Below, in pieces: positions 16,280 through 49,089 of a stretch of DNA of 64,000 nucleotides (position 1 is its first letter; the number at the start of each line of letters is the position of its first letter). The notes under the pieces were generated by a model, which was not told the DNA's origin, made no database searches, and saw only the letters and a list, made by a program, of their open reading frames with translations. Made by a program: the position numbers and the translations under genes. Origin of the DNA: Gammaproteobacteria bacterium (GTDB lineage: Bacteria; Pseudomonadota; Gammaproteobacteria; Eutrophobiales; Eutrophobiaceae); NCBI GenBank assembly GCA_965221695.1, contig OZ244905.1:2701384-2765383 (forward strand). Direction: 5' to 3'.

Positions 16280-16281
16280 CT

Positions 16282-17781: not shown

Positions 17782-17828
17782 GATTTTGCTGATATATGCT
17801 GTGTAAATTTTACTAACTGTCCTGCACC

Positions 17829-36705: not shown

Positions 36706-37896
36706 CTAATAGTCCGGTAAAGTCCGGAGTCTTCCAAGCGCTTCAATGAAATGTGCTAGTGACAGGATGGTTGTGTCCTGGCTGCCGGGGAATGTATCTT
36801 CGCCAGTGTAAACAACAAATTTCTGTTTTACCTTTAAGTCTTCACAGGCCATGTGAAAGCCTTTTTTCAAGGTTGGAGTTCGGCTTGCTTTGATCTCAAC
36901 GGCCCAGTATTCATCAAGACCAAACTCAATTACCAAATCAATTTCTGCCCCAGCAGATGTGCGATAGAAAAACGGATGAGCGCTTGAAGGTAAGGCGTTA
37001 ATAATGGTCTCAATGACAAACCCCTCCCAGCTTTTTCCGAATATAGGATGCCCCAACAAAGCTTCATAATTCGGAATTTGCAGCAAGGCATGCACAAGAC
37101 CGCTATCGCGTACATAGGTACGTGGTGATTTCACCAGCCGTTTTTTGACGTTCCCATGCCAAGGCTCTAGCCTGCGAACCAATAACAAATCAACCATGAG
37201 GTCCAGATATCGACTAACGGTGACACTCTCTACGCCAAGAGAGCTTGCGAGTTTTGACGCGTTCAGTAGTTCACCTTGTGTATGGGCAAGCATGGTCCAA
37301 AAGCGCATCAAGGTCGTTGCTGGAATTCTTGGTCCTAGCTGAGGGATGTCTCGTTCCAGATAGGTGCGAATAAAATTCTGCCGCCACTGGTGACTGGCCG
37401 CATCATCTTCAGCGGCATAGCTGTCGGGAAACCCACCACGTATCCAGAGCTTTTGTAAGGGCTCTCCGGATGTTTCTTCAATTTCAAAAAGGTTTAAGCC
37501 AGTCAGTTCAGAGTAATGAATGCGGCCAGCAAGGCTCTCAGAGCTTTGTTTTAGCAACTCATTGGTTGCCGATCCTAAAACAAGAAAGCGTCCGTTTCCG
37601 CGCCCCTCACGACGTCTGGCATCAATGATTCCGCGCAGTGACATAAACAAATCAGGGTAGCGTTGGACCTCATCGAGAATGACCAGCTTATCTGCATGTA
37701 GTTCTAGATAGTGGGCAGGGTCTTTGAGCTTTTGGAAATCCTCTGGGTTCTCGAGATCCAAATAAACAGATGGTTGCCCTTTGGCGATCTCATGGGCAAG
37801 CGTTGTCTTGCCAATCTGGCGCGGGCCAAGAATGGCAACAGCCGGATTTTGACTGAGACTTTTGATGATTTTCTGTGTAAGCTCTCTTTCATACAT
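36706..37896 (-). CDS. AAA-family ATPase with C-terminal DUF4143-type domain
   Basis: MYERELTQKI...VAILGPRQIGKTTLAHEIA (Walker A), VILDEVQ (Walker B), about 396 aa. The track ORF extends to 37971. Confidence 0.75.
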   Translation of the reverse strand: MYERELTQKIIKSLSQNPAVAILGPRQIGKTTLAHEIAKGQPSVYLDLENPEDFQKLKDPAHYLELHADKLVILDEVQRYPDLFMSLRGIIDARRREGRGNGRFLVLGSATNELLKQSSESLAGRIHYSELTGLNLFEIEETSGEPLQKLWIRGGFPDSYAAEDDAASHQWRQNFIRTYLERDIPQLGPRIPATTLMRFWTMLAHTQGELLNASKLASSLGVESVTVSRYLDLMVDLLLVRRLEPWHGNVKKRLVKSPRTYVRDSGLVHALLQIPNYEALLGHPIFGKSWEGFVIETIINALPSSAHPFFYRTSAGAEIDLVIEFGLDEYWAVEIKASRTPTLKKGFHMACEDLKVKQKFVVYTGEDTFPGSQDTTILSLAHFIEALGRLRTLPDY

Positions 37897-38276
37897 GCTA
37901 GCAATACTAACACAAAATATTAAATATGCAAGGTAAATGTTTTTGTGGTGATCTGTTTCCAATGAAGGCAAAGCGGGATTAGAACCCGCGATACGGTACC
38001 GTGTTCACAACAAAAACCGGCGCTTGGCGAGGAAGGTGTACAGGCGGGTGGTGAACAAGTCGCCGGTACGGCGAACTTTGCGAGGCACAAACCTCTTATC
38101 ACCCAATGTAATTCGGTTTGTATAGTCCGCAACATCCGTAATTGGTTTTGAAAATCCTGTGTCTATGGACAACCCCCCCATACTTGATTAGCATAAGTCA
38201 TAAGGAGGACCTATCGTGAACGTTGATTTCGTGACAAAGCGCCAGTCTGACAATCTCATGCAAATGCCGACCATCC

Positions 38277-38684
38277 ATGTCCAGGATTCGTTGTTATAGT
38301 ATCGGTCGAGACCCCTCCGCATCCATCGTACTGCGTCATGAGACGGTGTCGCGCAGGCATGCAGAGTTGATTCCCGTATCCGGCGGGCAGGTATACGTCA
38401 CGGATTGCGCCAGCGCCTGCGGGACTTTCATCGATAAGGGCAGGCGCTGGGAGAGGCTTACCCAGGATTTCGTCGGCGCAGGCGGCAGGGTGCGTTTCGG
38501 CGAGGTTGAGGTCAGCGTGCAGAGTCTGCTGGCGGACATTGCCCGCTTGCCTGCCGGCGGTGGAACGGGTCCCGGCGGTTCGGCGGAGCCCGGCGGTACC
38601 CCAGGCGCCGATAAGAAGAAACATGTGGATGCCGGCCGCGGGGTCATGCGCGACCCGGAAACGGGCGAGCCGATTCCCATGTAA
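38277..38684 (+). CDS. Small FHA-domain protein with Gly/Pro-rich tail (operon gene 1)
   Basis: YSIGRDPSASIVLRHETVSRRHAEL...VTDCASACGTFI carries the FHA G-R...S-R-x-H...GT pattern. Confidence 0.75.
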   Translation: MSRIRCYSIGRDPSASIVLRHETVSRRHAELIPVSGGQVYVTDCASACGTFIDKGRRWERLTQDFVGAGGRVRFGEVEVSVQSLLADIARLPAGGGTGPGGSAEPGGTPGADKKKHVDAGRGVMRDPETGEPIPM

Positions 38685-38699: not shown

Positions 38700-39473
38700 A
38701 TGAACCAGAGAATGAGGATATTCATAGGGGCGCTGGGCGCGGGCGTGATCTTCATCGGCCTGCTCAGCCTGTTTTTCTCCGAAGGTTTCTTCGCCGACTT
38801 CCTGCTGGACCGGAATTCGAAGTTCATGCCCTACCCGGTCACGATACAGAATATCATGTGGCTGGTGTTCTTCATCGGGGCGGGAGAATTGCTGTCGCGC
38901 TACCTGCAGACGGACCGGGAAATCAGCCAGATCCGCCTGGGACTGTTGCCGGAGGACAGCACAACCCTATTGCGCAAGCAAGATCTGGGCGGCGTGTACC
39001 AGCGCGTCAAGGAAACCATGCACCCGGCGCCGGGCGCTGCGGAGGATTCCTATTTCCTGCAACGCCTGCTGTCCCGTTGTATCCTGCAGTTCCAGGTCAG
39101 CGGCGCCATTGATAAGGCAAACAACATGTTCAACTCCAGCCTGGAGTTGTTCCAGCACGAGGTCGAGCTGAGGTACAATGCCATTCGCTATATCGTCTGG
39201 CTGATCCCGACCCTGGGGTTCATCGGCACCGTGGTCGGCATCGCGCTGGCGCTCAGCAACGCCGGCAGCGTCGACAACTTCCAGGACCCCACCTTGCTGA
39301 AACAGCTTACCCAGAGTCTCGGCGTAGCGTTCTTTACCACCTTGCTGGCCTTGCTGCAATCCGCGGCGCTGATGTTCGCGCTGCATGTCGTACAAGGACA
39401 GGAGGAAGCGTCGCTGAACCGGATAGGGCAGTATTGCCTGGATAACCTGATTAACCGGTTGTACGAGACTTGA
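38700..39473 (+). CDS. MotA/TolQ/ExbB-family proton-channel-like membrane protein (operon gene 2)
   Basis: Predicted TM helices are present. The C-terminal block IPTLGFIGTVVGIALAL...LGVAFFTTLLALLQSAALMF matches the MotA_ExbB signature PxLGxxGTVxG...AxxTTxxGL. Confidence 0.7.
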   Translation: MNQRMRIFIGALGAGVIFIGLLSLFFSEGFFADFLLDRNSKFMPYPVTIQNIMWLVFFIGAGELLSRYLQTDREISQIRLGLLPEDSTTLLRKQDLGGVYQRVKETMHPAPGAAEDSYFLQRLLSRCILQFQVSGAIDKANNMFNSSLELFQHEVELRYNAIRYIVWLIPTLGFIGTVVGIALALSNAGSVDNFQDPTLLKQLTQSLGVAFFTTLLALLQSAALMFALHVVQGQEEASLNRIGQYCLDNLINRLYET

Positions 39474-39715
39474 TGGGGGTCGCCTGCGCGAGACAAATCG
39501 GCAGGACAGCCGATTTGCGCAGCGACTGCTGCCCGCAGGGTTGTATCCAGGGAAGGATGCAATGAGTGACGGAAGGAGAGAGGAATGACGGGTGGGTTCA
39601 AGAATGACGGTTAAGGGGCGAAGGGAGGTGTCGGCAAGTGGGTGTCGGCAAGTTGAACGCAGGGTGGTTTTCTGTTAAATTTTCATCAACCGCAACACCA
39701 GAAGGGGAGGACATC

Positions 39716-40375
39716 ATGCCGGTAAAACGCGATGCGGACGGGAACATCATAAAGGAACAGACAAGAACTACCGGAGTGGGTGATCCGGTGTTGCCGACCT
39801 TGGGGCGCTCCACTGTCGGCGCCACGGTCGGCCCCGGCAGGTCTCCCGAGACCAACCCCGGCCAGTCATCGGGTTATGAGGCCCAGACGGTGCTGGCAGG
39901 TTCGCCCCGTGTCGCGGAAGGGGAAGCCAGGACCCGGATCTACCGGCCCGGCAGGACGGGGCGGCAACAGCCGGAGACACCGGCTCCAGGTACGGGCGCT
40001 GAGGACGCGACGTCCTCTGCCATGGACGACCCGCCCGTAGGCTGGCTGGTCGTCGTCAGTGGGCCGGGACAGGGGAACTACATGGCCGTCGGCAACGGTT
40101 CGAATTCAGTCGGACGCGATGAGCGCGAGCGAGTGCGCGTGGATTTCGGTGACGAGTTGATCTCCCGCAGCGACCATTCAACGATCACCTACGATCCCAG
40201 GGGTAAGAAGTTTTACCTGCAGCACGGCGCCGGAAAAAACCTCACTTACCTGGAAGGCAAACCTGTCCTGGCGCCGACCGAACTGCCCGGGTTTTCCCGG
40301 ATCACGATTGGGAACACCGAATTGCTGTTCATCCCGCTCTGTTGCGATCAGTTTGACTGGGACGACTACACGTAA
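39716..40375 (+). CDS. FHA-domain protein with Thr/Pro/Gly-rich disordered N-terminus (operon gene 3)
   Basis: The ATG at 39716 is preceded by gaaggggagga. The C-terminus reads GWLVVVSGPGQGNYMAVGNGSNSVGRD...ISRSDHSTITYD...NLTYLEGKPV...ITIGNTELLF. Confidence 0.8.
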   Translation: MPVKRDADGNIIKEQTRTTGVGDPVLPTLGRSTVGATVGPGRSPETNPGQSSGYEAQTVLAGSPRVAEGEARTRIYRPGRTGRQQPETPAPGTGAEDATSSAMDDPPVGWLVVVSGPGQGNYMAVGNGSNSVGRDERERVRVDFGDELISRSDHSTITYDPRGKKFYLQHGAGKNLTYLEGKPVLAPTELPGFSRITIGNTELLFIPLCCDQFDWDDYT

Positions 40376-40384: not shown

Positions 40385-41368
40385 ATGAATGCCCTCAAGC
40401 AGTGGGTGTCGGGAGAGCAGATCCAGGGAGACCGAAATTACCAGGAAGACTATTTCTCGCTCAGCCTGCTTTCCCAGGGCCGGGAACCTCCGGATGAAGA
40501 CTGCCTGCTGCTCGTGCTGGCCGACGGCATGGGCGGACATGCCGGCGGCGCCGTTGCCAGCGAGACGGTAGTCAAGGCATTCCAGGAGGGCTTCAACCGC
40601 GATGCAACCGGGATCGCAGAGCGTTTCAGCGCCGGCATCGACACCGCCAACAACGCCGTCAGGGAAAAACAACAGGCCGATCCGGAACTGTCCGAGATGG
40701 GTTGCACCCTGGTGGCCGCGCTGGTGGTCGGGTCGACCCTTTACTGGACCAGCGTCGGCGATTCCATACTGTGGCTGTGCCGGCAGGGACATTTGCAGAG
40801 ATTGAATGCGGACCATTCCATGAAACCGCTGTTGCTGGACCTGGTCGAATTGGGCAGGATGACCGAAGAAGAGGCGCTGAGCGATTACCGGATCAACCAG
40901 CTACGCTCGGCCATTTTCGGCGAGGAGGTTCAGCTGATTGACATGAACGCGGACGGTTTCCAACTGGAGAGTGGTGATCTCGTTTTACTGGCCAGCGACG
41001 GCCTGGAAACCCTGTCCGGGCAAAGCATGACAGATGTCATCGAGGCCCGCGCGGACGATGCCGATGAGATAGTGAACGCCCTGCTTGACGCAGTTGCCAT
41101 GGCGGGGGTGCGCGGGCAGGACAATACTACGGCGCTGGCGTACCGGGTCGGCCAGGGGCATGATTCACTGCACGGCGTACTGGCGGGCATCAGCACAGAT
41201 GACAAGGATGCCGTATTCGAGCAGCAAGTGAAACCCTCCCGAACCTGCGAGTTGCGCCCGGCACAGGAACAGGAAGCGCCGGCAAAGCGGCCCGGCATCT
41301 TCGCCCGAGCCATACATGCCTTCTCCGGTAGACCGGCGCGTCAAGACACTCGTGACGGGAAGCAATGA
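40385..41368 (+). CDS. PP2C-family Ser/Thr protein phosphatase (operon gene 4)
   Basis: RNYQEDY, LADGMGGHAGG, LASDGL and GQDNTTA motifs. Confidence 0.85.
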   Translation: MNALKQWVSGEQIQGDRNYQEDYFSLSLLSQGREPPDEDCLLLVLADGMGGHAGGAVASETVVKAFQEGFNRDATGIAERFSAGIDTANNAVREKQQADPELSEMGCTLVAALVVGSTLYWTSVGDSILWLCRQGHLQRLNADHSMKPLLLDLVELGRMTEEEALSDYRINQLRSAIFGEEVQLIDMNADGFQLESGDLVLLASDGLETLSGQSMTDVIEARADDADEIVNALLDAVAMAGVRGQDNTTALAYRVGQGHDSLHGVLAGISTDDKDAVFEQQVKPSRTCELRPAQEQEAPAKRPGIFARAIHAFSGRPARQDTRDGKQ

Positions 41369-43104
41369 CAGCAATACGAGCATTGATGTTGTGTGCGCTT
41401 CTGGTGTACCTGCCGGCAGGCAACAGCCAGACGACCGGTGATGACGCAGAAGCGCCGGCTGTTTCCTCTGCCACTGCACCCGCTGTGCCTGCTGATACGC
41501 CCGTGACAACGGAGGACCCAGCGCAAATAGCCGCCCCCTCAGCGGATACAGCCACGGCGATTGCCGCGGTTGTGCAGGTTCCCGAACCCGTAGATTTCAG
41601 TGCGGTGCGGCCCCACCTGGTGGTCATAAGAGAAGGGATGGACGCCGCCGCACGTCGCACGCCGGGATTCAGCATCAGCGACCAGGGCCATATCCTGACT
41701 TATTCCGGAGAATTACGCGCCCGGGAGTACTACCTTGTCTCGGTTGCAGGCGGTCAGGTCTTTACTGCTGCGCTGCTTGATGAAGATGAAGACACCGGCC
41801 TCATGCTACTGAGGATCGCAGGAGAAGGGCACGGCCTCACCGCCCTGAAGTTTGCCAGAACGACGCTGGAAGCCGCGGTGCCGCTCTATGCAGTACGGTT
41901 CGACCCGGTGCGGGCGGAGCCGTTCGTGCCCGTTCCCGGCACGGTCACGCGGTTGCCTGCAACGGATGAGGAGACACCGGCAATCGTGCATAATGCCCTG
42001 TTCAATACGGCGGCCGCCGGGACGCCCTTGTTCAACCGTTGTTACCAGGCGGTCGGTGTCAGCGTGCTGCAAAGGAAGGGCTTCCCGCCGAGAACTCTCG
42101 ATCCCCAACAACAGGGTAGCGCCATCTCCCTGGCGGCCTACTCGTTGAGCGTGATCCTGGCGTCGGCCAACCTGACCCTGCCCATCGCTGAGGCGGAGTG
42201 CCAGAGTGCGGAGGAGGAGGCGCGACTGCGGCTGGAACAACTTCAGCAGGAAAAAGAGGCGGAGCGGGCAAATGCCGAAGCCCTGGCCCTTGCCGCCGCG
42301 GAGGAAGCGCTGCGCAGGGAGGCGGTAATGAACCTGGAGCGGGAAGCAGCGCAACAGCAGCTTGAACAGGCGCGCCAAGAGAAAGAAGCGGCCCTGCAGG
42401 CGGAGCGGGCAAGTGCCGAAGCCGATAAGCGCCGTTTGGAAGAAGAAGCGCAGCAACAACTTGAACAGGCGCAGCAGGAGAAGGAACAGGCCCTGCAGGC
42501 ACAACAGCAGGAGAATGAACAGGCTCTGCAGGTGGAGCGGCAGGAGACCGAACAGGCCCGGCGGGAAGCCCGGCAGGCGACGCATACGGGGAAACAGATC
42601 CTGCTGTTATCGCTAGCGGTCGTCTTCGTCCTGGCGCTGGTCTTCTTCCTGGTCCTGCGCGCCAGGCGTAAACACCTGCAACGCGTGGAACAGGAAAAAC
42701 AGCAGTTCGCCCAGGACCTGGACAGGGCAGAGGCAGACCTGTCAGACGCCTCCGAGAGGGAGCAGCTACGCGCCGGCGCCCCCGACGTGTTTATCGAGGG
42801 TGTCACGCCGCAGAACGAGCGCATCGCCCTGAAAATACCCGGCGCCTCACTGGTCAAACCCTCAGGTGTCACGGTAGGCAGGAGTCCCTCCGAATCCGAG
42901 TTCGTCATCAATCACGAACAGGTCTCCCGCCGCCATTTCCGCCTCATGCTGGTGTCTGGGCAGGTGATGATCGAAGATATGGGCTCGACCAATGGGACCG
43001 TCGTGAACGGCGTGCCCCTCAGTCCCGGCGCCCGGCAGACGCTGGGCGACGGCAGCCGCATGCAGGTCGGGCGCGTGACGATGACGGTGCGGATAGGTCT
43101 CTGA
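41365..43104 (+). CDS. Bitopic membrane protein: signal peptide, trypsin-like (apparently inactive) periplasmic domain, repetitive coiled coil, TM helix, cytoplasmic FHA domain (operon gene 5)
   Basis: Signal MTAIRALMLCALLVYLPAGNSQ. The HtrA-like layout (GFSISDQGHILTY...DTGLMLLRI...AAAGTPLF) lacks an obvious His or Ser. QQLEQAxQEKExALQA repeats follow, then TM ILLLSLAVVFVLALVFFLVL. The FHA region reads VTVGRSPSESEFVINHEQVSRRHFRL...STNGTVVNG. Confidence 0.65.
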   Translation: MTAIRALMLCALLVYLPAGNSQTTGDDAEAPAVSSATAPAVPADTPVTTEDPAQIAAPSADTATAIAAVVQVPEPVDFSAVRPHLVVIREGMDAAARRTPGFSISDQGHILTYSGELRAREYYLVSVAGGQVFTAALLDEDEDTGLMLLRIAGEGHGLTALKFARTTLEAAVPLYAVRFDPVRAEPFVPVPGTVTRLPATDEETPAIVHNALFNTAAAGTPLFNRCYQAVGVSVLQRKGFPPRTLDPQQQGSAISLAAYSLSVILASANLTLPIAEAECQSAEEEARLRLEQLQQEKEAERANAEALALAAAEEALRREAVMNLEREAAQQQLEQARQEKEAALQAERASAEADKRRLEEEAQQQLEQAQQEKEQALQAQQQENEQALQVERQETEQARREARQATHTGKQILLLSLAVVFVLALVFFLVLRARRKHLQRVEQEKQQFAQDLDRAEADLSDASEREQLRAGAPDVFIEGVTPQNERIALKIPGASLVKPSGVTVGRSPSESEFVINHEQVSRRHFRLMLVSGQVMIEDMGSTNGTVVNGVPLSPGARQTLGDGSRMQVGRVTMTVRIGL

Positions 43105-43818
43105 ATGAACCGTTCATTGTGGTGCGGTTTGATATTTCTCAGCCTCTGGGGTCTGAGTTACCAGGGTGGCGCGGATATTGATGACCAGGAAGAACATTTC
43201 AGGGAGGAGCAGGGGGCGCAACAGGATCAGGAAGCCGCGCGACGGGAACGCAAGCGTGCCCGACAGGCAGAACAGGAGGCGCTCCGGCAACAGGAAGCGG
43301 CGCGCCAGCGCGTGGTTCAGCAAAATCTGTTCGTAACCTTGCTGGCTCTGTTGACCCTGCTGGCCTTGATACTGGCCTTGAGAAAACCCCGGCAGGCCAT
43401 TGTTTGGGCCGCCGGCCACGCAATCGAACCACTCAGTCGGCGCTTCAAACCGGCAGGGCGCTTGCCCGCGCCGGGCGCAGCCCGCGCCGGGACGGCAAAC
43501 GTCGTACTTACGGGCTTTGACAGCCGGGGCAAACCGGTGAATATCCCGTTGCCGGAGGAGGAACTGGATCGGAAACGGGGCGGTTTCACCCTGGGGCGCC
43601 ATCACCTGCTGGTCGATACGGCGCTGGACGATGACCGGATATCGAAGCGCCATGCCCGGTTCACCCGCAACGGTCACGGCTATTTTATCGAAGACCTCAA
43701 TTCGAGAAACGGCACTGTGATCAACGGTGAGCAACCCTGCGCGCCGTTCAAACCCATGCGAATCAGGCCCGGCGACACGGTGCGGCTAGGCGGCATGGAG
43801 TTGCTCGTATCGGCCTGA
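43105..43818 (+). CDS. Membrane-anchored FHA-domain protein (operon gene 6)
   Basis: N-terminal hydrophobic segment, a charged E/Q/R-rich stretch, TM LFVTLLALLTLLALILAL, and a C-terminal FHA (FTLGRHHLLVDTALDDDRISKRHARF...SRNGTVING). The ATG abuts the gene 5 stop. Confidence 0.75.
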   Translation: MNRSLWCGLIFLSLWGLSYQGGADIDDQEEHFREEQGAQQDQEAARRERKRARQAEQEALRQQEAARQRVVQQNLFVTLLALLTLLALILALRKPRQAIVWAAGHAIEPLSRRFKPAGRLPAPGAARAGTANVVLTGFDSRGKPVNIPLPEEELDRKRGGFTLGRHHLLVDTALDDDRISKRHARFTRNGHGYFIEDLNSRNGTVINGEQPCAPFKPMRIRPGDTVRLGGMELLVSA

Positions 43819-43831: not shown

Positions 43832-44635
43832 GTGAGGCTACGCAGCAAGGAGATCAATGTCTTCAACATGTCCGCGCTGGACCTGTTCGCCTCCGCGCTG
43901 GGTGCGTTTATCCTTATTTCCGTGGTCTTGTTTCCCTATTTTCCCAACACCGGCGATTCCCAGGAACGGGTGGACGAGGTCAAGGCGCAACTGGCTGAGG
44001 CCAATGCGCGATTGGAGGAAACCAGCGCCGAACTGGAGCAGGTCCGCGCCCGGTTGAACCCCGCCCTGGAACAAGAACTGCAGGTCGCACGAGAACAACT
44101 CGGCGCGTGCCAGGCCCGACTCCGGGAGGCAGAGGCCGCGCTAAACGCCTGCCAGGTTGAACAGCGAGAAGTTGCATCATTGGATTCCGCGCTGGGCGCC
44201 TGCGAGAACCGCAACCGGCAGATGCAACAGGAACTGCAATCCTGCGAGAATGAATTGCGCAAGAAATTCGTGCTGGTCGTGATCAGCTGGGGCACGCCGG
44301 ACGATATCGACCTGCACGTGATCGATCCGCAAGGCCGGGAGTTCTTCTACGGGCGCAAACACATCCCCGGTTCCCTGGCAAAACTGGAAGAGGACAACAC
44401 CAGAGGTCCCGGCAATGAGATCTGGCTGCACCCGGCCGCGGAGCCGGGCGCCTACGAGGTTTACTACAAATATTACGATGGATCAACCGGCAACGTGCAG
44501 GTGCGCGGCGCGGCGCTGACGCCCCGCGGCAGGACGGAGTTGCCGGACATCACTCTGCGGTACGTGGGTGAGAAGCCCCTGGTGGCAACCATTTTCGTCA
44601 ATGAGGATGGCAACGCTGAGGTGAGGGCATGGTAA
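43832..44635 (+). CDS. Bitopic protein with MotB/ExbD/TolR-like Asp-containing TM helix, Cys-bearing coiled coil and C-terminal DUF2135 (YfaP)-like domain (operon gene 7)
   Basis: N-terminus MRLRSKEINVFNMSALDLFASALGAFILISVVLF (compare TolR SEINIVPLLDVLLVLLLIF and MotB ADFMTAMMAFFLV). The coiled coil has four xAC(Q/E)/SCE motifs. The C-terminus reads VISWGTPDDIDLHVIDPQGREFFYG...EEDNTRGPGNEIW...PGAYEVYYKYY. Confidence 0.6.
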   Translation: MRLRSKEINVFNMSALDLFASALGAFILISVVLFPYFPNTGDSQERVDEVKAQLAEANARLEETSAELEQVRARLNPALEQELQVAREQLGACQARLREAEAALNACQVEQREVASLDSALGACENRNRQMQQELQSCENELRKKFVLVVISWGTPDDIDLHVIDPQGREFFYGRKHIPGSLAKLEEDNTRGPGNEIWLHPAAEPGAYEVYYKYYDGSTGNVQVRGAALTPRGRTELPDITLRYVGEKPLVATIFVNEDGNAEVRAW

Positions 44636-44766: not shown

Positions 44767-47373
44767 ATGAACTCCGACCACCTGCATGCCCTACCGCCCG
44801 GCACGCGCCTTGAAGAATTTCGGCTGGAGGCGCAGGTGGGCGCCGGCGGGTTCAGCATCACCTATCGGGCCTATGACGAATTACTGGACAAGGTGGTGGC
44901 CGTCAAGGAATACCTGCCGCGGGATTTCGCCACCCGCACCGCCGGCAATACAGTGGCGCCCATATCCGATGCGGACGCCCGGGATTACCAGTGGGGCCTG
45001 ACCCGGTTCCTGGACGAGGCCCGCACGCTGGCCAGGTTCGACCATCCGCATCTCAACAAGGTGCGTCGTTTCTTCGAGGCCAACGGCACGGCCTACATGG
45101 CGCTGGAGCATATCCATGGCGAGACCCTGGCTACCCGGTTAAGCCGCGAGCGGCGCTTGCCGGAAACGGACCTGCTGCGCCTGCTGGAGGAAGTGTTATC
45201 GGGACTTGCTGTGATTCACGAGGCTGGCTACGTGCACCGGGACATCAAACCGGGCAACCTGATGCTGCGCGAGGAAGACGACAGCATAGTGCTGCTGGAC
45301 TTCGGCGCCGCGCGCCAGGCAGTGGGCCAGAGTTCCAAGTCAATCACCAGCATCCTGACACCGGGCTATGCCCCGATAGAGCAGTACGAAAGCAAAGCGG
45401 ACGCCGTCGGACCGTGGAGTGATATCTATGCATTGGGGATGGTGGCGTACAAGTGCATCAGCGGCGCGGGTGACGGGGAGTTGCCCGATGCCGTGACCCG
45501 GGCCCGCTCCCAACGCAAAGGGGGTAAGGACCTGGCGATGGCGGCGGAGGTGGGCCAGAGCAGGTACAGTGCGAAGCTGCTGGCGGCGATAGACTGGGCC
45601 ATCGAGGTGGATGAGGAGTCCCGGCCGCAGGGGGTGGGTGAGTGGAGTGAGGCGCTGGTGGGGAGCGGGAGCAAGCAACGAGCCGCCAAACCGGCGCCTA
45701 ATACAACGGCACGGTCTGCAAAGGCTCCGGCCACCGAGCGCCAGGGTATGAATTGGTACAGCATGGCCCTGACCGCGGTGATAGTGGTGTTACTGGGAGC
45801 GAGCGCCTGGCAGGGCTGGCGGCTGTATCAGGGGATGCCCGGGCTTGGCGTAGACGGCGCCGCCACGGCAGTTGAGTCGCAGGCAAACGCACAGGGCAAA
45901 GCAGAGTTAGCAGCAGAACCCTATGCACAAACACCAACGGTAACGCCAGAACAAGGCTCCGGGCCTGACGCGCCCACACTGGCCGCGCCGGTTGAGGAAG
46001 ACGAAGTCGCCCGGCTGCTGGCTGCAGCCGAAGCCGACTTGGAGGCAAGACGCCTGACCAGTCCGCAGGGGAACAACGCCTGGGAGAAGTACCGGCGGGT
46101 ATTGGGTTTATCCTCCGCGCACCCCGAGGCCATAGCGGGGATGGAGCGGGTGATCGGGAGTTACATGGACCTGTTCGGCGCTGTTCTGGAGCAGGAGGAT
46201 TTTGACCAGGCGGAGGGGTATCTCTCACGCATCCGCGACCTGCACCCGGATTCGCCACTCTTGTTGACGGGGAAAGAACGTTTGGAACAAGCCCGGCAGG
46301 CTCATGTCGAGCGGTTGGCGGAAGAAGAGCGCCTGCGCCAGGCCGAGGAAGCGGCGCGCCAGGCGGAACAGGAGCGCCAGCGAATAGCACAGGAAATCGA
46401 GAGACACTGGCAGTCCTTTGAGACGGCAATGCAGCAAGACAAATTGGACCGGGCGGAAGACAGTCTCAACCTCGTGCGGGAGTTGGACTCGGACGCGCCG
46501 GGGTTAGCGGATGCGGAACGACGCCTGTCACAGGCGCGGGAAGCATCCCGGCAGAAGGCGCTGCAGTATGCCGGTGAGATGGTCTCCATCCCTGCCGGCA
46601 GTTTCCGCATGGGGGACCTGACAGGCGCTGACGCTGAGAAACCGGTCCACAGTGTGCGAGTCGCGGCCTTCAGCATGGGCAAGTATGAGGTAACGGTGGG
46701 CCAGTTCCAGCGGTTTGTGGAGGCGACGGGGTACCTCACGGATGCGGAGCGTTATACGGACGGCAAAGCAGGTTGTTCTGTCTATACAACAAAAAGATGG
46801 AAGTACACCGAGGGCAAGAGTTGGCGCAATCCGGGGTTTTCAGTCGGAGACAAGCACCCGGTGGTGTGCGTGAACTGGAATGATGTGCAGGCGTTCGTGA
46901 AGTGGCTGAACGGCAATACCGATGGGGATTTCCGCTTGCCGACCGAGGCGGAGTGGGAGTATGCGGTGCGCGCCGGGAGCAGTACGAAGTATCATTTCGG
47001 CAATGATGAGTCACAACTGTGCCGGTTTGCCAGCCATGCGGACAGCGGGACGGATATTGATTGGAAAAACAAGTCCTGCTCGGACGGTGTGGGCGAACGC
47101 ACCGCCGAAGTGGGCCGTTACCAGCCGAACAGTTTCGGGCTGTATGACATGCACGGCAATGTCTGGGAGTGGGTGACAGATTGCTGGAATGAGAGTTATG
47201 TGGGCGCCCCGACAGACGGTAGCGCCTGGACGAATGGGGACTGCAGCCGGCGCGTCATTCGGGGCGGGGCCTGGGACAGCTCACCGTGGAACCTGCGTTC
47301 CGCGCACCGTTACGGGAGCTCCCGTTCGAATCACAGCTCTTATCTGGGCTTTCGCTTGGCCCGGGACAACTGA
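44767..47373 (+). CDS. Transmembrane Ser/Thr protein kinase fused to a C-terminal FGE-sulfatase (SUMF1/formylglycine-generating enzyme family) domain (operon gene 8)
   Basis: Kinase motifs GAGGFSITY, VAVKEY, HRDIKPGNLML, DFGAAR and TPGYAPIEQY. TM WYSMALTAVIVVLLGASAW. A helical/coiled periplasmic linker follows. The FGE domain reads MVSIPAGSFRMGD...FRLPTEAEWEYAVRAG...GLYDMHGNVWEWV...RVIRGGAWDS...LRSAHR. Confidence 0.85.
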   Translation: MNSDHLHALPPGTRLEEFRLEAQVGAGGFSITYRAYDELLDKVVAVKEYLPRDFATRTAGNTVAPISDADARDYQWGLTRFLDEARTLARFDHPHLNKVRRFFEANGTAYMALEHIHGETLATRLSRERRLPETDLLRLLEEVLSGLAVIHEAGYVHRDIKPGNLMLREEDDSIVLLDFGAARQAVGQSSKSITSILTPGYAPIEQYESKADAVGPWSDIYALGMVAYKCISGAGDGELPDAVTRARSQRKGGKDLAMAAEVGQSRYSAKLLAAIDWAIEVDEESRPQGVGEWSEALVGSGSKQRAAKPAPNTTARSAKAPATERQGMNWYSMALTAVIVVLLGASAWQGWRLYQGMPGLGVDGAATAVESQANAQGKAELAAEPYAQTPTVTPEQGSGPDAPTLAAPVEEDEVARLLAAAEADLEARRLTSPQGNNAWEKYRRVLGLSSAHPEAIAGMERVIGSYMDLFGAVLEQEDFDQAEGYLSRIRDLHPDSPLLLTGKERLEQARQAHVERLAEEERLRQAEEAARQAEQERQRIAQEIERHWQSFETAMQQDKLDRAEDSLNLVRELDSDAPGLADAERRLSQAREASRQKALQYAGEMVSIPAGSFRMGDLTGADAEKPVHSVRVAAFSMGKYEVTVGQFQRFVEATGYLTDAERYTDGKAGCSVYTTKRWKYTEGKSWRNPGFSVGDKHPVVCVNWNDVQAFVKWLNGNTDGDFRLPTEAEWEYAVRAGSSTKYHFGNDESQLCRFASHADSGTDIDWKNKSCSDGVGERTAEVGRYQPNSFGLYDMHGNVWEWVTDCWNESYVGAPTDGSAWTNGDCSRRVIRGGAWDSSPWNLRSAHRYGSSRSNHSSYLGFRLARDN

Positions 47374-47463: not shown

Positions 47464-49089
47464 TCACCGCATCGATTTTTGCAGTACCGAGAAGTTTCTT
47501 ACCCAAGGCTCTAGTTTGCGTATTTCATCGGGCAAATCATCTATAGCTCTTTCGGCAAGCTCATAGTCATGGTACAGACCATAAAACACGCGATAGTAAG
47601 TTATCTGCTCGATCTCGATCCTGATATAGGCAATCTGCTGTGTCAGGTTATTCTGTTTGAGGAAATTTAGCACACGTTCTTCACTGGAAAAGCTGGCCAG
47701 TTGCAAAGTGTAGTGATACGGAGATTGTGCGGCGACCCAGTCTTCCCGCCTGATAGCGGTCTCACCGGCGTCAGAGGCATCCTCGCCAGCCAACTCATCT
47801 TCATCGGAAATGACCTCGCTGGTGGTCGCAACCAGATCGGAAATGGCCTCTGGTACAGCCGCAATGTATTCCGCTGTCGCTGGTACAGGGCTGGTGTCCG
47901 CGGTCTCTGCAACAGTCTCCGGCGTTTCCTCCTCCGCGGCGTTCAGCGCGATCTCGGCGGTGTCCTCATCCGTCTGAGCAGCTACGATGGTCGGCGTTTC
48001 TTCGACAGCAGGCGCTGTGTCTTCTGCTTCAGTTGCCTCAGCAGCAGTTTGAGCAAGGCTGGTCTCCGCGGTCTCTGCAACGATCTCCGGCGCTTCCTTC
48101 TCCGCATCGAACAGTGCGGTCTCGGCTGTGTCTTCGTCCGACTGAGCGGCTATGGTCGGCGCTTCCTCCTGCGTGACGCTCAGTGCGGTCTCGGCAGCGT
48201 CCTCATCCGGCTGAGCAGCTATAATCGGTGTTTCCTCGACGGCAGGTACCGTATCTTCTTCAGTTGCCTGCGCAAAGGGTTCTGTTGTTTCCTGCATTGC
48301 AGGCGCTTGCGATACGGTCGTGTCCTCTTCAATATCGACATAAGCAAGTCTTTGTAAGCTTTCTTCTGCCTGTTGCAGACCCCCGGCGGCCGCGCGTTGA
48401 TACCATTTTTTCGCCTCCACCAGGTCCTTTTCTACCGCGTAACCATTTTCATAGTACACGCCCATGTTGAATTGCGCCTGTGGGACATCGGCGTCAGCGG
48501 CTTTTCTGAACCAGAGTAGCGCTACATCATAGTCCTGGTCGACGCTGTAACCGAAGGCGTACATGACAGCCAGGCTGTATTGCGCATTTCCGTTTCCCTG
48601 CTCTGCTGCTTGGCGGAAAAGCCGGGTGGCTGTTTCATAATCCCGGGTAATCTGCTCACTGCCGTTGAAGTACAAAAGGCCAAGGTTGAACAGCGCATCC
48701 GATTGCCCGGCCGCCGCGGCCAGCTTCCACCATTGCATGACTTTAGACGGGTCTTTTGTGACACCATCACCGTGCAAGTACTTGACGCCGAGCTCGAATT
48801 GGGCGTCGGGGTGCCCTTGATCCGCCGCAAGCAAGTACCATTTTACTGCTTCGGCAGAATCTGCGTTAACGCCATGGCCATAGTCATACATGAGGCCAAG
48901 CATTCTTTGCGCATCCGAGTTGCCGTCCTCAGCCAGTGGTTGCAGTATTTCGTAGGCTTTTTCGTAGTCTTTGGCCAGGTAGGCCTGTCTCGCCGTTTCA
49001 AAAGATTGCGCCAGCACAGGGCCGGAAAATACCAACCCCAATAACAGGAAAGGAATTAACTTGGTCAGCATAAACCGTATCTTTGACAT
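47464..49089 (-). CDS. Exported Sel1-repeat protein with acidic repetitive linker and C-terminal SPOR domain
   Basis: Signal-like N-terminus, about five Sel1 repeats (DAQxxLGxxYxxGxGVxxDxxxAxxWY), an E/T/A/D-rich repeat region, and the C-terminal YTLQLASFSSEERVLNFL...YYRVFYGLY. Confidence 0.75.
   Translation of the reverse strand: MSKIRFMLTKLIPFLLLGLVFSGPVLAQSFETARQAYLAKDYEKAYEILQPLAEDGNSDAQRMLGLMYDYGHGVNADSAEAVKWYLLAADQGHPDAQFELGVKYLHGDGVTKDPSKVMQWWKLAAAAGQSDALFNLGLLYFNGSEQITRDYETATRLFRQAAEQGNGNAQYSLAVMYAFGYSVDQDYDVALLWFRKAADADVPQAQFNMGVYYENGYAVEKDLVEAKKWYQRAAAGGLQQAEESLQRLAYVDIEEDTTVSQAPAMQETTEPFAQATEEDTVPAVEETPIIAAQPDEDAAETALSVTQEEAPTIAAQSDEDTAETALFDAEKEAPEIVAETAETSLAQTAAEATEAEDTAPAVEETPTIVAAQTDEDTAEIALNAAEEETPETVAETADTSPVPATAEYIAAVPEAISDLVATTSEVISDEDELAGEDASDAGETAIRREDWVAAQSPYHYTLQLASFSSEERVLNFLKQNNLTQQIAYIRIEIEQITYYRVFYGLYHDYELAERAIDDLPDEIRKLEPWVRNFSVLQKSMR

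What the first reader, a model, noticed from the sequence alone, without database searches (positions are those of the whole stretch)
41365..43104. Gene 5: apparently dead trypsin/HtrA-like periplasmic domain, DNA-level repetitive coiled coil, and a cytoplasmic FHA domain
The periplasmic portion follows the strand pattern of chymotrypsin-fold proteases (GFSISDQGHILTY ... DEDEDTGLMLLRI ... NTAAAGTPLFN..YQAVGVSV). The expected His is absent (HVV becomes YSG). The GNSGGP serine block reads AAAGTP, which suggests a pseudo-protease used for binding.

Next comes a ~130-aa coiled coil built from QQLEQA(R/Q)QEKE(A/Q)ALQA units, visible as ~90-bp DNA repeats between about 42236 and 42560. That region could vary in length by slippage or recombination. 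A TM helix and a canonical FHA domain finish the protein. The arrangement could link a periplasmic binding event to cytoplasmic pThr recognition.
Basis: partly seen in the sequence, partly recalled or inferred. Interest (0 to 1): 0.55.

Follow-up and report, generated by a model that had tools for sequence, protein, structure and literature searches.

The report
Dead HtrA protease on stalk, FHA-anchored
Gene 5 encodes an inner-membrane protein that holds a catalytically dead HtrA-type protease domain about 19 nm out in the periplasm on a long helical stalk and carries a phosphothreonine-binding FHA domain in the cytoplasm; it belongs to a widespread, apparently undescribed operon that combines Ser/Thr kinase signalling with a MotA/MotB-like ion-driven motor.

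Summary
Window 41365-43104 (+) is a 579-aa ORF with these parts: signal peptide, disordered Pro/Ala/Thr tail, HtrA/DegS-fold domain, 129-aa Gly/Pro-free helix, TM helix, and a canonical FHA domain.

The AF2 model of the head (pLDDT 91) matches DegS, Deg1 and HtrA1 (Foldseek E 1e-11). All three catalytic positions are replaced (His->G115, Asp->G145, Ser->A218). None of 82 close homologues or 147 distant cluster representatives keeps a full triad.

The DNA repeats are real but old. Their periods are 33 and 99 bp, not ~90, which equals one and three 11-residue hendecads of the stalk. Four near-identical relatives show no length change.

- In most related loci the next gene is a sister protein with an intact HtrA triad. 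In this genome that sister (gene 6) has lost its protease head.
- Stalk length is held at about 105-150 residues across the family.
- The operon also encodes a MotA/ExbB-like protein, a probable MotB/ZorB-like partner, three further FHA proteins (four in all), a PP2C phosphatase and a kinase with a periplasmic FGE-like domain.

My best reading is a non-catalytic, phosphothreonine-controlled periplasmic binding or adaptor subunit, analogous to MamO/MamE. The mechanism is inferred, not shown.

The parts
41365..43104 (+). Gene 5, complete ORF (579 aa): signal peptide, disordered tail, dead HtrA-like head, helical stalk, TM, FHA
   Evidence: ORF list. Pfam Trypsin_2 + FHA. 85 homologues share this architecture. 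The start at M1 is supported by alignment of homologue N-termini.
41365..41427 (+). Signal peptide (about residues 1-21: R5, hydrophobic core ALMLCALLVYL, AGNS/Q cleavage region)
   Evidence: Read from the sequence. Conserved in homologues. The AF2 full-length model has a helix at 2-14 followed by disorder. The cleavage site is inferred.
41428..41592 (+). Disordered Pro/Ala/Thr-rich N-terminal tail (about residues 22-76), the most length-variable segment of the family
   Evidence: pLDDT is below 50 for residues 15-75. The distance from the N-terminus to the G101 equivalent ranges from 10 to 230 aa among homologues. P0002 has 51 extra residues here.
41593..42201 (+). Catalytically dead HtrA/DegS-fold domain (residues 77-279)
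   Evidence: AF2 pLDDT 91. Foldseek against PDB finds DegS/Deg1/HtrA1 at E 1e-11. The family profile hits HTRA1 at E 4e-17. dN/dS is 0.12 against L018.
41707..41709 (+). Codon of G115, at the position of the catalytic His
   Evidence: Alignment to HTRA1 (TNAH versus TYSG). Column composition among 82 homologues: G 46, R 14, H 3.
41797..41799 (+). Codon of G145, at the position of the catalytic Asp
   Evidence: Column composition: G 76, D 6.
42016..42018 (+). Codon of A218, at the position of the nucleophilic Ser (AAAGTP versus GNSGGP)
   Evidence: Column composition: A 73, Y 5, S 2. Among 147 distant representatives: Y 51, F 37, A 15, S 2.
42040..42042 (+). Codon of Cys226, first of a conserved Cys pair (probable disulfide tying the head to the start of the stalk)
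   Evidence: Invariant in 82/82 homologues. The pair is present in 141/147 representatives and is shared with the active paralogues. The disulfide itself is inferred.
42199..42201 (+). Codon of Cys279, second Cys of the pair, three residues before the stalk helix starts
   Evidence: Present in 81/82 homologues. The helix starts at residue 282 in both AF2 models.
42202..42594 (+). Periplasmic helical stalk (residues 280-410), E/A/Q/R-rich, with no Gly or Pro until residue 409 (G409); hendecad periodicity
   Evidence: Composition and heptad/hendecad layout. The family-averaged hydrophobic period is 3.6-3.65, with conserved Leu residues spaced 11, 11, 14, 8, 11, 11 apart. AF2 gives a helix at 282-362 with high confidence to about residue 340. 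Stalk length is 105-151 aa in 75 homologues and has a median of 121.5 in 140 representatives.
42343..42500 (+). 99-bp-period direct repeat (two 59-nt copies, 83% identical), equal to 33 aa or three hendecads
   Evidence: the repeat finder family D3.
42472..42577 (+). 33-bp tandem repeat, 2.7-3.2 copies, 77-81% matches, equal to one hendecad per unit
   Evidence: Tandem Repeats Finder. Family D1.
42595..42663 (+). Transmembrane helix (residues 411-433), followed by RARRKHLQR on the cytoplasmic side
   Evidence: Hydropathy maximum of 3.33 at residue 412. AF2 helix 411-471.
42664..42780 (+). Cytoplasmic helical linker (residues 434-472). The length of the cytoplasmic part is nearly constant in the family (median 148 aa; mostly 144-153, full range 136-162)
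42781..43104 (+). FHA domain with all canonical phosphothreonine-binding residues
   Evidence: Pfam FHA E 2e-16. GR, SRxH and TNG motifs are at least 90% conserved. NCBIfam FhaB/FipA gives E 4e-15 over the TM + FHA region, below the curated cutoff. pLDDT 91-96.
38277..38684 (+). Operon partner: small cytoplasmic FHA protein (135 aa)
   Evidence: ORF. Pfam FHA E 3e-13. Equivalent small FHA genes precede the MotA-like gene in L001, L010 and L019.
38700..39473 (+). Operon partner: MotA/ExbB/TolQ-family membrane protein (257 aa)
   Evidence: Pfam MotA_ExbB E 1e-10. PADLOC ZorA2 E 7.5e-6. Conserved next to gene-5 homologues in L001, L002, L004, L006, L008, L009, L018, L019, L020 and L021.
39638..40375 (+). 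Operon partner: cytoplasmic FHA protein with a disordered Thr/Ser/Gly/Pro-rich N-terminus
   Evidence: Pfam FHA. Present in all loci with an intact upstream flank.
40385..41368 (+). Operon partner: PP2C-type Ser/Thr phosphatase. Its stop codon overlaps the gene 5 start
   Evidence: Pfam PP2C_2. NCBIfam Stp1 PP2C E 7e-41.
43105..43818 (+). Gene 6: sister protein (signal peptide, short stalk, TM, FHA). In most related loci it carries an intact HtrA protease head, which has been lost here
   Evidence: Pfam FHA. Orthologues in L002-L004 and L006-L008 have TNQHV / KDLAVIRA / GNSGGP. The alignment shows about 215 aa missing in the window. Orthologues in L018 and L019 also lack the head but have much longer stalks.
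43832..44635 (+). Operon partner: probable MotB/ZorB-like subunit (invariant TM motif SALDLFASAxGAF containing an Asp), followed by a coiled coil and a DUF2135-like head
   Evidence: PADLOC ZorB1 E 3.8e-4 for residues 6-70. Invariant columns. Adjacent to the MotA-like gene in L009. DUF2135 in 3/8 members and vWA in 3/8.
44767..47373 (+). Operon partner: Hanks-type Ser/Thr kinase, then a TM helix, then a periplasmic FGE-sulfatase-like domain
   Evidence: Pfam Pkinase E 2e-31 and FGE-sulfatase E 1e-67.

Best explanation
Gene 5 is a type I inner-membrane protein and a pseudoenzyme.

Shown:
- Its periplasmic head has the HtrA/DegS fold but lacks all three catalytic residues.
- This has been so throughout a large and old family.
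- The head is still under purifying selection.
- A Gly/Pro-free amphipathic helix of about 130 residues with an 11-residue repeat separates the head from the membrane. Its length is held within narrow limits across the family.
- The cytoplasmic end is an FHA domain with intact phosphothreonine-binding residues.
- The gene sits in a tightly packed, widely conserved operon with a Hanks kinase that has a periplasmic FGE-like domain, a PP2C phosphatase, three more FHA proteins and a MotA/ExbB-like protein plus a probable MotB/ZorB-like partner.
- In most related loci the adjacent paralogue is the same kind of protein with an intact HtrA triad.

Inferred:
- The FHA domain docks the protein onto phosphothreonines written by the operon kinase and erased by the PP2C.
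- The stalk, probably fixed to the head by a C226-C279 disulfide, acts as a spacer. It would place the head about 18-19 nm from the inner membrane, at the level of the cell wall or outer membrane.
- There the dead head binds, but does not cut, a peptide or protein ligand.
- In most lineages it would present substrates to, or regulate, its active sister protease, as the dead HtrA MamO does for MamE. Cytoplasmic phosphorylation would thereby be coupled to a periplasmic binding or proteolysis event.
- In this genome the sister has lost its protease head, so only the binding or scaffolding role can remain.
For: Fold and dead triad: with column counts. No member has H-D-S among 82 + 147 sequences, while the control active paralogue reads H, D, S, C, C in the same columns.

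Purifying selection: dN/dS for the head is 0.12, the stalk 0.13 and the FHA domain 0.15 against L018.

Topology: signal peptide, positive-inside rule and Cys pair.

Stalk as a ruler: lengths are 105-151 aa (median 127) in 75 homologues and have an interquartile range of 107-130 in 140 representatives. The N-terminal tail, by contrast, ranges from 10 to 230 aa. Hendecad periodicity.

FHA competence.

Operon conservation in Gammaproteobacteria, 'Ca. Binatia', Azotimanducaceae and Rhodospirillales MAGs. FHA1 + PP2C + gene 5 + kinase remain even in the minimal locus L005.

Active sister paralogue next door in L002, L003, L004, L006, L007, L008 and L009. Active single-copy versions in L010, L011 and L014.

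Precedent for a dead HtrA that activates an active HtrA paralogue: MamO/MamE (PMC4794232).
Against: - No ligand, partner or phosphosite is known, and everything beyond the anatomy is inference.
- In this genome, and in L001, L018 and L019, the sister protein has no protease head. The 'regulates an active paralogue' role cannot operate here.
- The stalk has a very sparse hydrophobic core (12% Leu/Val/Met). The monomer AF2 model loses confidence after about residue 340, so a straight 19-nm rod is not established.
- The presence of a MotA/MotB-like pair suggests a mechanical role that this explanation does not use.
Confidence: 0.55

Rival explanations
1. Gene 5, with gene 6, is the TolA/TonB/GltG-like arm of the operon's MotA/MotB-like 5:2 motor. 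Its TM helix and FHA domain would dock on the MotA-like pentamer. Proton-driven motion would be passed up the rigid stalk to the head, which grips a cell-wall or outer-membrane partner. Phosphorylation would gate the engagement. This rival overlaps with the best explanation rather than excluding it.
For: - A MotA/ExbB-family gene and a probable MotB/ZorB-like gene with an invariant TM Asp motif lie in the same operon in 10 loci holding a dead gene-5 homologue and in two further loci holding only an active version.
- The stalk is periplasm-spanning and length-constrained, and the Cys pair could stiffen the head-stalk joint.
- In Myxococcus, GltG is a protein with an FHA domain next to its TM helix and a long periplasmic extension. 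It interacts with AglR through its TM helix, and modelling places the FHA domain on the motor (PMC11761067).
Against: - The topology is reversed relative to TonB, TolA and GltG: the head is N-terminal and the TM is C-terminal.
- There is no TonB_C domain and no SHLS-type TM motif.
- Locus L005 keeps gene 5, FHA1, PP2C and the kinase with no MotA/MotB-like gene within 10 kb.
- The MotB-like assignment rests on one weak profile hit (E 3.8e-4) and a motif. PDB and Pfam searches gave nothing specific.
Confidence: 0.2
2. The head is still a hydrolase that uses a non-canonical catalytic set, for example the invariant H209 with a nearby Ser or Asp. On this view 'dead' would be a mis-call.
For: H209-N210-A211, H109 and several Ser residues are invariant or nearly so. 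Some members keep two of the three canonical residues: H+D in P0081, P0084 and P0085, and D+S in P0030 and P0031.
Against: - His209 is also present in the active paralogues (QH[SDT]A), so it is a subfamily feature and not a replacement catalytic residue.
- The nucleophile position is Ala, Tyr or Phe in 171 of the 229 sequences examined (A/Y in 78 of 82; Y/F/A in 103 of 147).
- The His and Asp positions are mostly Gly, and no alternative residue is conserved at them.
Confidence: 0.05
3. The repetitive stalk is a contingency locus. Slippage or recombination between the DNA repeats would change stalk length often, giving strain-level or within-population variation.
For: - Direct and tandem repeats with 33- and 99-bp periods exist, beyond codon-shuffled expectation.
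- Homologues differ by 4-, 7- and 11-residue indels in the stalk. The window has a 12-bp deletion (AALQ) relative to P0002.
Against: - The repeats are only 77-83% identical, and the longest exact repeat is 15 nt.
- L001 (98% nucleotide identity) and the three other members of the 90% identity cluster have exactly the same stalk length.
- Across the family the length is constrained, not free.
- The truly variable segments are the N-terminal tail of gene 5 and the stalk of gene 6.
Confidence: 0.04
4. The head is a decaying relic of a once-active protease with no present function. Only the TM-FHA part would matter.
For: The sister gene has lost its head altogether in this lineage, which shows that heads are dispensable for some function of these proteins.
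Against: - dN/dS for the head is 0.12, as low as for the FHA domain, in lineages without an active partner.
- The fold is predicted with pLDDT 91.
- The Cys pair and the HNA, GF and P221 motifs are conserved across hundreds of diverged sequences.
Confidence: 0.03

Closest known systems
HtrA/DegS/DegP family serine proteases (MEROPS S1C), especially membrane-anchored DegS
   Same: The head has the same two-barrel chymotrypsin-like fold (Foldseek E 1e-11) and clear sequence homology (profile E 4e-17 to HTRA1). Like DegS it is periplasmic and tethered to the inner membrane.
   Different: No catalytic His, Asp or Ser. No PDZ domain. The anchor is C-terminal through a 130-residue stalk, not an N-terminal TM. 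A cytoplasmic FHA domain is added, and the subfamily has its own Cys pair.
MamO / MamE of magnetotactic bacteria (PMC4794232)
   Same: MamO is a bacterial HtrA-fold pseudoprotease with a degenerate active site, encoded together with an active HtrA paralogue whose proteolysis it promotes. Gene-5-type (dead) and gene-6-type (active) proteins are paired in the same way in L002-L004 and L006-L009.
   Different: MamO binds metal through a di-His motif and carries a TauE-like membrane domain. It has no FHA domain, no stalk and no kinase/phosphatase context. Metal binding was not tested here. In this window the active partner has lost its protease head.
Myxococcus GltG with the AglRQS motor (PMC11761067)
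   Same: GltG is a bitopic inner-membrane protein with a cytoplasmic FHA domain next to the TM helix and a long periplasmic extension ending in a globular domain. It is genetically and physically linked to a MotA/TolQ-type 5:2 motor.
   Different: GltG has the opposite orientation (FHA at the N-terminus, TonB_C-like domain at the C-terminus). It has disordered linkers rather than a helical stalk, and no protease fold. The NCBIfam GltG match here is confined to residues 512-575, inside the FHA domain (E 1.5e-4, far below cutoff).
Actinobacterial PknB-PstP-FhaA-FhaB(FipA) cell-wall signalling cluster
   Same: The logic matches: a transmembrane Hanks kinase with an extracytoplasmic sensor domain, a PP2C phosphatase and several FHA proteins in one operon, one of them a TM + FHA protein. 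The TM + FHA part of gene 5 matches NCBIfam FhaB/FipA at E 4e-15.
   Different: The score (56 bits) is far below the curated cutoff (125 bits), so gene 5 is not an equivalog. There is no RodA/PbpA, the sensor is FGE-like rather than PASTA, and a periplasmic pseudoprotease, stalk and MotA/B-like genes are added.
T6SS threonine-phosphorylation pathway (PpkA-PppA-Fha1) and T3SS YscD/EscD
   Same: In these systems FHA domains read Thr phosphorylation or act as cytoplasmic modules of envelope-spanning assemblies. Pfam Yop-YscD_cpl matches the FHA region above its cutoff (40.8 versus 33.2 bits).
   Different: No T6SS or T3SS genes lie in the operon or its flanks. YscD has the opposite topology and ring-building periplasmic domains.
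TolA domain II and other long periplasmic helical spacers
   Same: Both have a long Ala/Glu/Gln/Lys/Arg-rich helix with few bulky hydrophobic residues, able to span the periplasm next to a TolQ/ExbB-type protein. The TolA composition is from my own knowledge. The gene 5 stalk composition is.
   Different: No sequence homology was detected. The polarity is reversed. The stalk here has a regular 11-residue repeat.

Membership tests
HtrA/S1C serine protease (as an enzyme) | Chymotrypsin-like two-beta-barrel fold homologous to the HtrA protease domain | tested here: met
   AF2 pLDDT 91. Foldseek finds DegS/Deg1/HtrA1 at E 1e-11, with TM-score 0.65-0.77 normalised to the target. The profile hits HTRA1 at E 4e-17. 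Pfam Trypsin_2 is just above its cutoff.
HtrA/S1C serine protease (as an enzyme) | Catalytic triad His-Asp-Ser | tested here: not met
   G115, G145 and A218 occupy the three positions. None of 82 homologues or 147 representatives has the full triad.
HtrA/S1C serine protease (as an enzyme) | One or more C-terminal PDZ domains | tested here: not met
   No PDZ hit in Pfam or NCBIfam. The head is followed directly by the stalk helix.
HtrA/S1C serine protease (as an enzyme) | Trimeric (or higher) assembly through the protease domain | not testable with these tools
   Only monomer prediction is available.
FHA domain (phosphothreonine reader) | FHA beta-sandwich with conserved Gly-Arg, Ser-x-x-His and Asn-Gly loops | tested here: met
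   Pfam FHA E 2e-16. G505, R506, S521, R522, H524, T542, N543 and G544 are present and at least 90% conserved. pLDDT 91-96.
FHA domain (phosphothreonine reader) | Binding of a phosphothreonine ligand | not testable with these tools
   This needs ITC, fluorescence polarisation or phosphoproteomics.
MamO-type HtrA pseudoprotease | Degenerate active site in an HtrA fold | tested here: met
MamO-type HtrA pseudoprotease | Partner active HtrA paralogue encoded alongside | tested here: inconclusive
   Met in L002, L003, L004, L006, L007, L008 and L009. Not met in this window, L001, L018 or L019, where gene 6 lacks the head.
MamO-type HtrA pseudoprotease | Surface di-His metal-binding motif and TauE-like domain | not tested
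   No TauE hit in Pfam. A metal site cannot be judged without coordinates or experiment.
TonB/TolA/GltG-type periplasmic transducer | N-terminal TM anchor that docks on an ExbB/TolQ/AglR pentamer | tested here: not met
   The TM is C-terminal to the periplasmic part, giving type I topology. Docking itself is not testable here.
TonB/TolA/GltG-type periplasmic transducer | Long periplasm-spanning spacer | tested here: met
   The stalk is 129 aa and Gly/Pro-free. The family median is 121-127 aa.
TonB/TolA/GltG-type periplasmic transducer | C-terminal TonB_C/TolA_III domain | tested here: not met
   No such Pfam or NCBIfam hit. The distal domain has the HtrA fold.
TonB/TolA/GltG-type periplasmic transducer | Genomic linkage to a MotA/ExbB/TolQ-type gene and its B subunit | tested here: met
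   MotA_ExbB gene at 38700-39473. ZorB-like TM protein at 43832-44635. The linkage is conserved in other loci, except L005.
FhaB/FipA (Rv0019c) equivalog | NCBIfam NF049868 score above the curated cutoff (125 bits) | tested here: not met
   56.3 bits, E 3.8e-15, covering residues 413-573.
Canonical coiled coil | Regular heptad or hendecad hydrophobic periodicity | tested here: inconclusive
   The family-averaged period is 3.6-3.65, and conserved Leu residues are spaced 11 apart. The signal exceeds 95% of permutations only when Ala is counted. Only 12% of residues are Leu/Val/Met. Oligomerisation is not testable.
Phase-variable (contingency) repeat locus | Near-perfect tandem repeats and length polymorphism among close strains | tested here: not met
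   Repeats are 77-83% identical and the longest exact repeat is 15 nt. The length is identical in L001, P0086 and P0088, and in the stalk of P0087, whose total length differs only through a C-terminal frameshift.

The most novel reading that the evidence does not exclude
Gene 5 and its sister protein are the periplasm-spanning arms of a previously undescribed envelope machine. In it, a MotA/MotB(ZorAB)-like proton-driven 5:2 motor would be coupled to Hanks-type Thr phosphorylation, which is read by four FHA domains. The dead-HtrA head, held at a fixed height of about 18-19 nm, would work as a cell-wall or outer-membrane-level clamp or substrate presenter for a membrane-tethered HtrA protease. 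Cytoplasmic phosphorylation and ion-motive force would then jointly control a periplasmic binding or proteolysis event.
Probability: 0.25. Interest if true: 0.8.

Novelty: new variant of a known kind. Interest (0 to 1): 0.55.

Why it matters
Bacterial pseudoproteases are rare and poorly understood, and MamO is the main worked example. This family is large: 481 cluster representatives at E <= 1e-30. None of the 229 members examined keeps a full triad. It has a clear active sister protein, so a dead/active HtrA pair can be compared directly across lineages, including a natural case (this genome) where the active head has been lost.

The architecture links a periplasmic domain at a fixed distance from the membrane to a cytoplasmic phosphothreonine reader through a single helix. 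That offers a simple, testable model for how Ser/Thr phosphorylation is coupled across the inner membrane in Gram-negative bacteria.

The conserved operon joins FHA/PP2C/kinase signalling to a MotA/MotB-like stator pair. I found no description of this combination in the searchable literature.

Tried and rejected
- The exact-sequence contig look-up for P0001 found nothing on record.
- phmmer of the MotA-like protein against PDB gave no hit.
- A profile of the MotB-like protein against PDB gave only coiled-coil noise. Pfam per member gave no ExbD or MotB_plug hit. The MotB-like call therefore rests on the PADLOC ZorB1 hit, the invariant Asp motif and adjacency to the MotA-like gene in L009.
- PADLOC gave no defence-system assignment for gene 5 or the FHA/PP2C genes. 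It gave only generic ZorA/ZorB, LmuB/JetC-type coiled-coil and kinase similarities, so I did not file the operon as a defence system.
- The afdb50 fold library was unavailable.
- Four literature searches for this architecture or operon found nothing relevant. The only FHA + trypsin fusion found in print is FHA-FHA-Tryp in Bacteroides thetaiotaomicron, which is a different arrangement.
- I considered a lipoprotein signal, because a Cys lies in the signal peptide. I rejected it because LMLC is not a lipobox and the Cys is not conserved.
- The 598-aa cluster member P0087 looked like a length variant but is a C-terminal frameshift.
- A search for a DGR VR/TR pair next to the kinase in L018 found no repeat in the DNA held.

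Full report
**1. The observation**

Window 41365-43104 (+) is a single 579-aa ORF. Its ATG overlaps the stop codon of the upstream PP2C gene (ATGA). The next gene's ATG follows its stop codon directly, so it sits inside a tightly packed operon.

Pfam finds Trypsin_2 at residues 101-232, barely above threshold (28.4 versus 27.6 bits), and a strong FHA domain at 502-569 (E 2e-16). A database search returned 85 homologues. Nearly all carry precomputed Trypsin_2 + FHA annotations, and none has a source name.

**2. Fold and active site**

A profile of 27 family members hits human HTRA1 in the PDB at E 4e-17. It also hits HhoA, DegP-like, MucD, HtrA2 and DegS. The very best hits are S328A active-site mutants of HTRA1, because the family has Ala where the nucleophile should be.

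An AlphaFold2 model of residues 71-300, built on 82 sequences, has mean pLDDT 91. Foldseek places it with the DegS, Deg1 and HtrA1 protease domains (E about 1e-11, TM-score 0.65-0.77 normalised to the target, 18-20% identity).

The HMM alignment to HTRA1 maps the triad as follows:
- TNAH to T112-Y113-S114-G115
- DEKADIALI to D-E-D-T-G145-L-M-L-L
- GN(S)GGP to A216-A217-A218-G219-T220-P221

All three catalytic residues are therefore replaced: His->Gly, Asp->Gly, Ser->Ala.

Among 82 homologues no sequence has the full triad. A few keep two residues: H+D with Ser->Tyr in P0081, P0084 and P0085, and D+S with His->Gly in P0030 and P0031.

A search of 1.84 billion cluster representatives with the family profile gave 481 proteins at E <= 1e-30. 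Of the best 147, none has H-D-S. The nucleophile column there is Tyr (51), Phe (37) or Ala (15). A control active paralogue read H, D, S in the same columns. This is an old, large pseudoprotease family and not a recent accident.

The head is still under purifying selection. dN/dS is 0.12 against the 78%-identical orthologue in L018, similar to the FHA domain at 0.15.

**3. Other conserved features of the head**

Cys226 (in LFNRC, just after the dead 'GNSGGP' block) is invariant. Cys279, three residues before the stalk helix starts, is present in 81/82 homologues. The pair is present in 141/147 representatives. In a periplasmic domain this probably means a disulfide that pins the start of the stalk to the barrel.

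His209-Asn210-Ala211 is invariant. However, the His is shared with the active paralogues (QH[SDT]A), so it is a subfamily mark and not a new catalytic residue.

**4. The stalk and the DNA repeats**

Residues 280-408 contain no Gly or Pro. Their composition is 23% Glu, 22% Ala, 20% Gln and 11% Arg, with only 12% Leu/Val/Met.

The family-averaged hydrophobicity has a period of 3.6-3.65 residues. Conserved Leu residues sit at 322, 333, 344, 358, 366, 377 and 388, mostly 11 apart. The signal exceeds 95% of permutations when Ala is counted. This is a hendecad-type amphipathic helix with a sparse core, closer to a straight bundle or a TolA-domain-II-like rod than to a classic heptad coiled coil.

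The DNA repeats fit this:
- a 33-bp tandem array of 2.7-3.2 copies with 77-81% matches (42472-42577), which is one hendecad per unit
- a 59-nt pair 99 bp apart at 83% identity (42343 / 42442), which is three hendecads
- a 26-nt pair 141 bp apart at 96% identity

The longest exact repeat is 15 nt, against 10.2 +/- 1.3 in codon-shuffled controls. The repeats are real but old.

The full-length AF2 model (pLDDT 79) gives:
- disorder for residues 15-75
- the head at 85-266
- a helix at 282-362, confident to about residue 340
- low-confidence kinks at 363-376 and 397-410
- one helix at 411-471 covering the TM and a cytoplasmic extension
- FHA at 474-578

**5. Length variation**

The distance from Cys279 to the TM is 133 residues here. 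In 75 homologues it ranges from 105 to 151 (median 127). In 140 distant representatives the median is 121.5 with an interquartile range of 107-130.

Near relatives differ in steps of 4, 7 and 11 residues (126, 133, 137). The window lacks four residues (AALQ) that P0002 and almost all other homologues have.

By contrast, L001 (98% nucleotide identity, 34 substitutions, no indel) and the other members of the 90% identity cluster have exactly the same stalk. Length is thus tuned over evolutionary time but constrained. This argues for a spacer or ruler of about 18-19 nm if the helix is continuous (0.15 nm per residue, from my own knowledge), not for a phase-variable locus.

The freely variable segment is the disordered N-terminal Pro/Ala/Thr tail, which ranges from 10 to 230 residues. 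The cytoplasmic part is almost constant: median 148 residues, mostly 144-153, full range 136-162.

**6. Topology**

Four features agree on a periplasmic head and stalk with a cytoplasmic FHA:
- an N-terminal signal peptide (R5, hydrophobic core, AGNS/Q)
- the conserved Cys pair in the head
- a single strong TM helix at 411-433
- five basic residues immediately after the TM

The FHA domain keeps every canonical phosphothreonine-binding residue.

**7. Genomic context**

The operon reads as follows:

| Coordinates | Product |
|---|---|
| 38277-38684 | small FHA protein |
| 38700-39473 | MotA/ExbB-family protein |
| 39638-40375 | FHA protein |
| 40385-41368 | PP2C phosphatase |
| 41365-43104 | gene 5 |
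| 43105-43818 | gene 6 |
| 43832-44635 | 267-aa TM protein |
| 44767-47373 | Hanks kinase, TM helix, periplasmic FGE-sulfatase-like domain |

The same gene set and order recur around gene 5 homologues in MAGs labelled Gammaproteobacteria, 'Ca. Binatia' and Azotimanducaceae, and around more distant relatives in Rhodospirillales.

The 267-aa protein has an invariant N-terminal TM motif (S-A-L-D-L-F-A-S-A-x-G-A-F) in every locus. This holds even where its periplasmic head is swapped from a DUF2135-like domain to a vWA domain. Its first 70 residues hit the PADLOC ZorB1 (MotB) model at E 3.8e-4, and in L009 it lies directly after the MotA-like gene. It is therefore probably the B subunit of a MotAB/ExbBD/ZorAB-type 5:2 motor. 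PDB and Pfam searches did not confirm this independently.

One locus (L005) keeps only FHA, PP2C, gene 5 and kinase/FGE genes, with no MotA/B-like gene within 10 kb. The tightest association of gene 5 is therefore with the phospho-signalling genes.

**8. The sister protease**

In L002, L003, L004, L006, L007 and L008, the gene that follows the gene 5 homologue (the orthologue of window gene 6) encodes the following domains in order:
- a signal peptide
- an HtrA-like domain with an intact triad (TNQHV, KDLAVIRA, GNSGGPLFDxCGRV)
- the same Cys pair
- a shorter stalk
- a highly conserved TM (LALRKPRQ)
- an FHA domain

L009 has a degenerate (H, D, Tyr) copy and an intact copy in tandem. L010, L011 and L014 have a single intact version with little or no stalk. 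The usual state is therefore a dead/active pair of membrane-tethered, FHA-linked HtrA proteins.

In this window gene 6 aligns with those orthologues from the stalk onward but lacks the roughly 215-residue protease head. No other intact HtrA domain is detectable in the 64-kb window. L001 is the same. In L018 and L019 gene 6 also lacks the head but has a stalk about 170-190 residues longer, built of E/A/Q/G-rich repeats.

**9. How it most likely works**

The anatomy, conservation, context and pairing described above are shown. The following is inferred. The FHA domain docks gene 5 onto phosphothreonines produced by the operon kinase and removed by the PP2C. The stalk holds the head at a set height in the periplasm. 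The head binds a peptide or protein without cutting it.

By analogy with MamO, a dead HtrA that activates MamE-dependent proteolysis (PMC4794232), the head would present substrates to, or regulate, the active sister protease where one exists. In this genome only a binding or scaffolding role can remain, and the low dN/dS shows that role is still selected.

An overlapping alternative is that gene 5 is the transducing arm of the MotA/B-like motor. Myxococcus GltG is a precedent: its TM helix interacts with AglR, and its membrane-proximal FHA domain is modelled on the motor (PMC11761067). Against this, the reversed topology, the absence of a TonB_C domain and the motor-less locus L005 weigh.

**10. 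Comparison with known systems and novelty**

Gene 5 is a homologue of HtrA proteases but fails the enzyme's defining test, the triad, and has no PDZ domain. It works most like a MamO-type pseudoprotease fused to a FhaB/FipA-like TM-FHA module. The NCBIfam hit to FhaB/FipA is E 4e-15 but far below cutoff.

The operon logic resembles the actinobacterial PknB-PstP-FhaA-FhaB cluster and the T6SS PpkA-PppA-Fha1 pathway, but with different sensors and outputs.

Four literature searches found no description of this architecture or operon. The library does not cover subscription journals. The only printed FHA + trypsin fusion found is a different arrangement in Bacteroides.

I rate it a new variant of a known kind. 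The individual parts are familiar. The combination is not: the dead/active pairing and the link to a MotA/B-like pair.

Noticed in passing
window 43105-43818 (+); L002:11630-12991; L018:9035-10273; L019:8819-10093: Gene 6 is the orthologue of an intact-triad HtrA, stalk, TM, FHA protein found next to gene 5 homologues in most loci. Here, and in L001, the roughly 215-aa protease head is cleanly missing. In L018 and L019 the head is also missing, but the stalk is about 170-190 aa longer and built of E/A/Q/G-rich repeats. The dramatic repeat-length variation is therefore in gene 6, not gene 5.
   Followed up: yes
window 43832-44635 (+): This 267-aa protein has an invariant N-terminal TM motif (SALDLFASAxGAF, containing an Asp) that resembles MotB/ZorB/ExbD plug-TM segments (PADLOC ZorB1 E 3.8e-4). 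It continues with a Cys-containing coiled coil and a DUF2135-like C-terminal domain. In the Rhodospirillales loci L010 and L011 the C-terminal domain is a vWA domain instead, and the gene is duplicated.
   Followed up: partly
window 38277-38684 (+): A small 135-aa FHA protein gene opens the operon, just upstream of the MotA/ExbB-like gene. It is easily missed in ORF lists with a 150-aa cutoff. The operon therefore encodes four FHA-domain proteins.
   Followed up: yes
window 36706-37971 (-): An AAA_14/DUF4143 ATPase gene lies on the opposite strand between the DUF1015 gene and the operon. It is absent from the otherwise collinear, about 98% identical locus L001, where the corresponding gap is only about 0.7 kb. 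It also coincides with a GC dip (0.49 for 36-38 kb). It looks like a recent insertion or deletion polymorphism.
   Followed up: partly
L018:12654-16034: In a related locus the operon's kinase-FGE-sulfatase gene is followed immediately by bAvd and a reverse transcriptase (RVT_1), the hallmark of a diversity-generating retroelement. FGE/C-type-lectin folds are classic DGR targets (my own knowledge). No VR/TR repeat pair was found in the DNA held, which ends inside the RT gene. The window has no such element after its kinase.
   Followed up: partly
L005:13452-16895; L020:376-4005; L021:1-156: In several related loci the FGE-sulfatase-like periplasmic domains are fused to, or in L021 lie beside, PG_binding_1 domains. 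In the window a Sel1-repeat + SPOR protein (47464-49089, minus strand) lies just downstream. This points to a peptidoglycan-associated theme for the system.
   Followed up: no
L020:4275-6746 (-): Next to a distant gene 5 homologue lies a second kind of protease-FHA fusion (Peptidase_M4_C + FHA, 823 aa). This suggests that FHA-tethered envelope proteases are a recurring design in these clusters.
   Followed up: no
window 14001-18000: This region has markedly lower GC (0.475-0.478) than the rest of the window (0.52-0.63). It was not examined.
   Followed up: no
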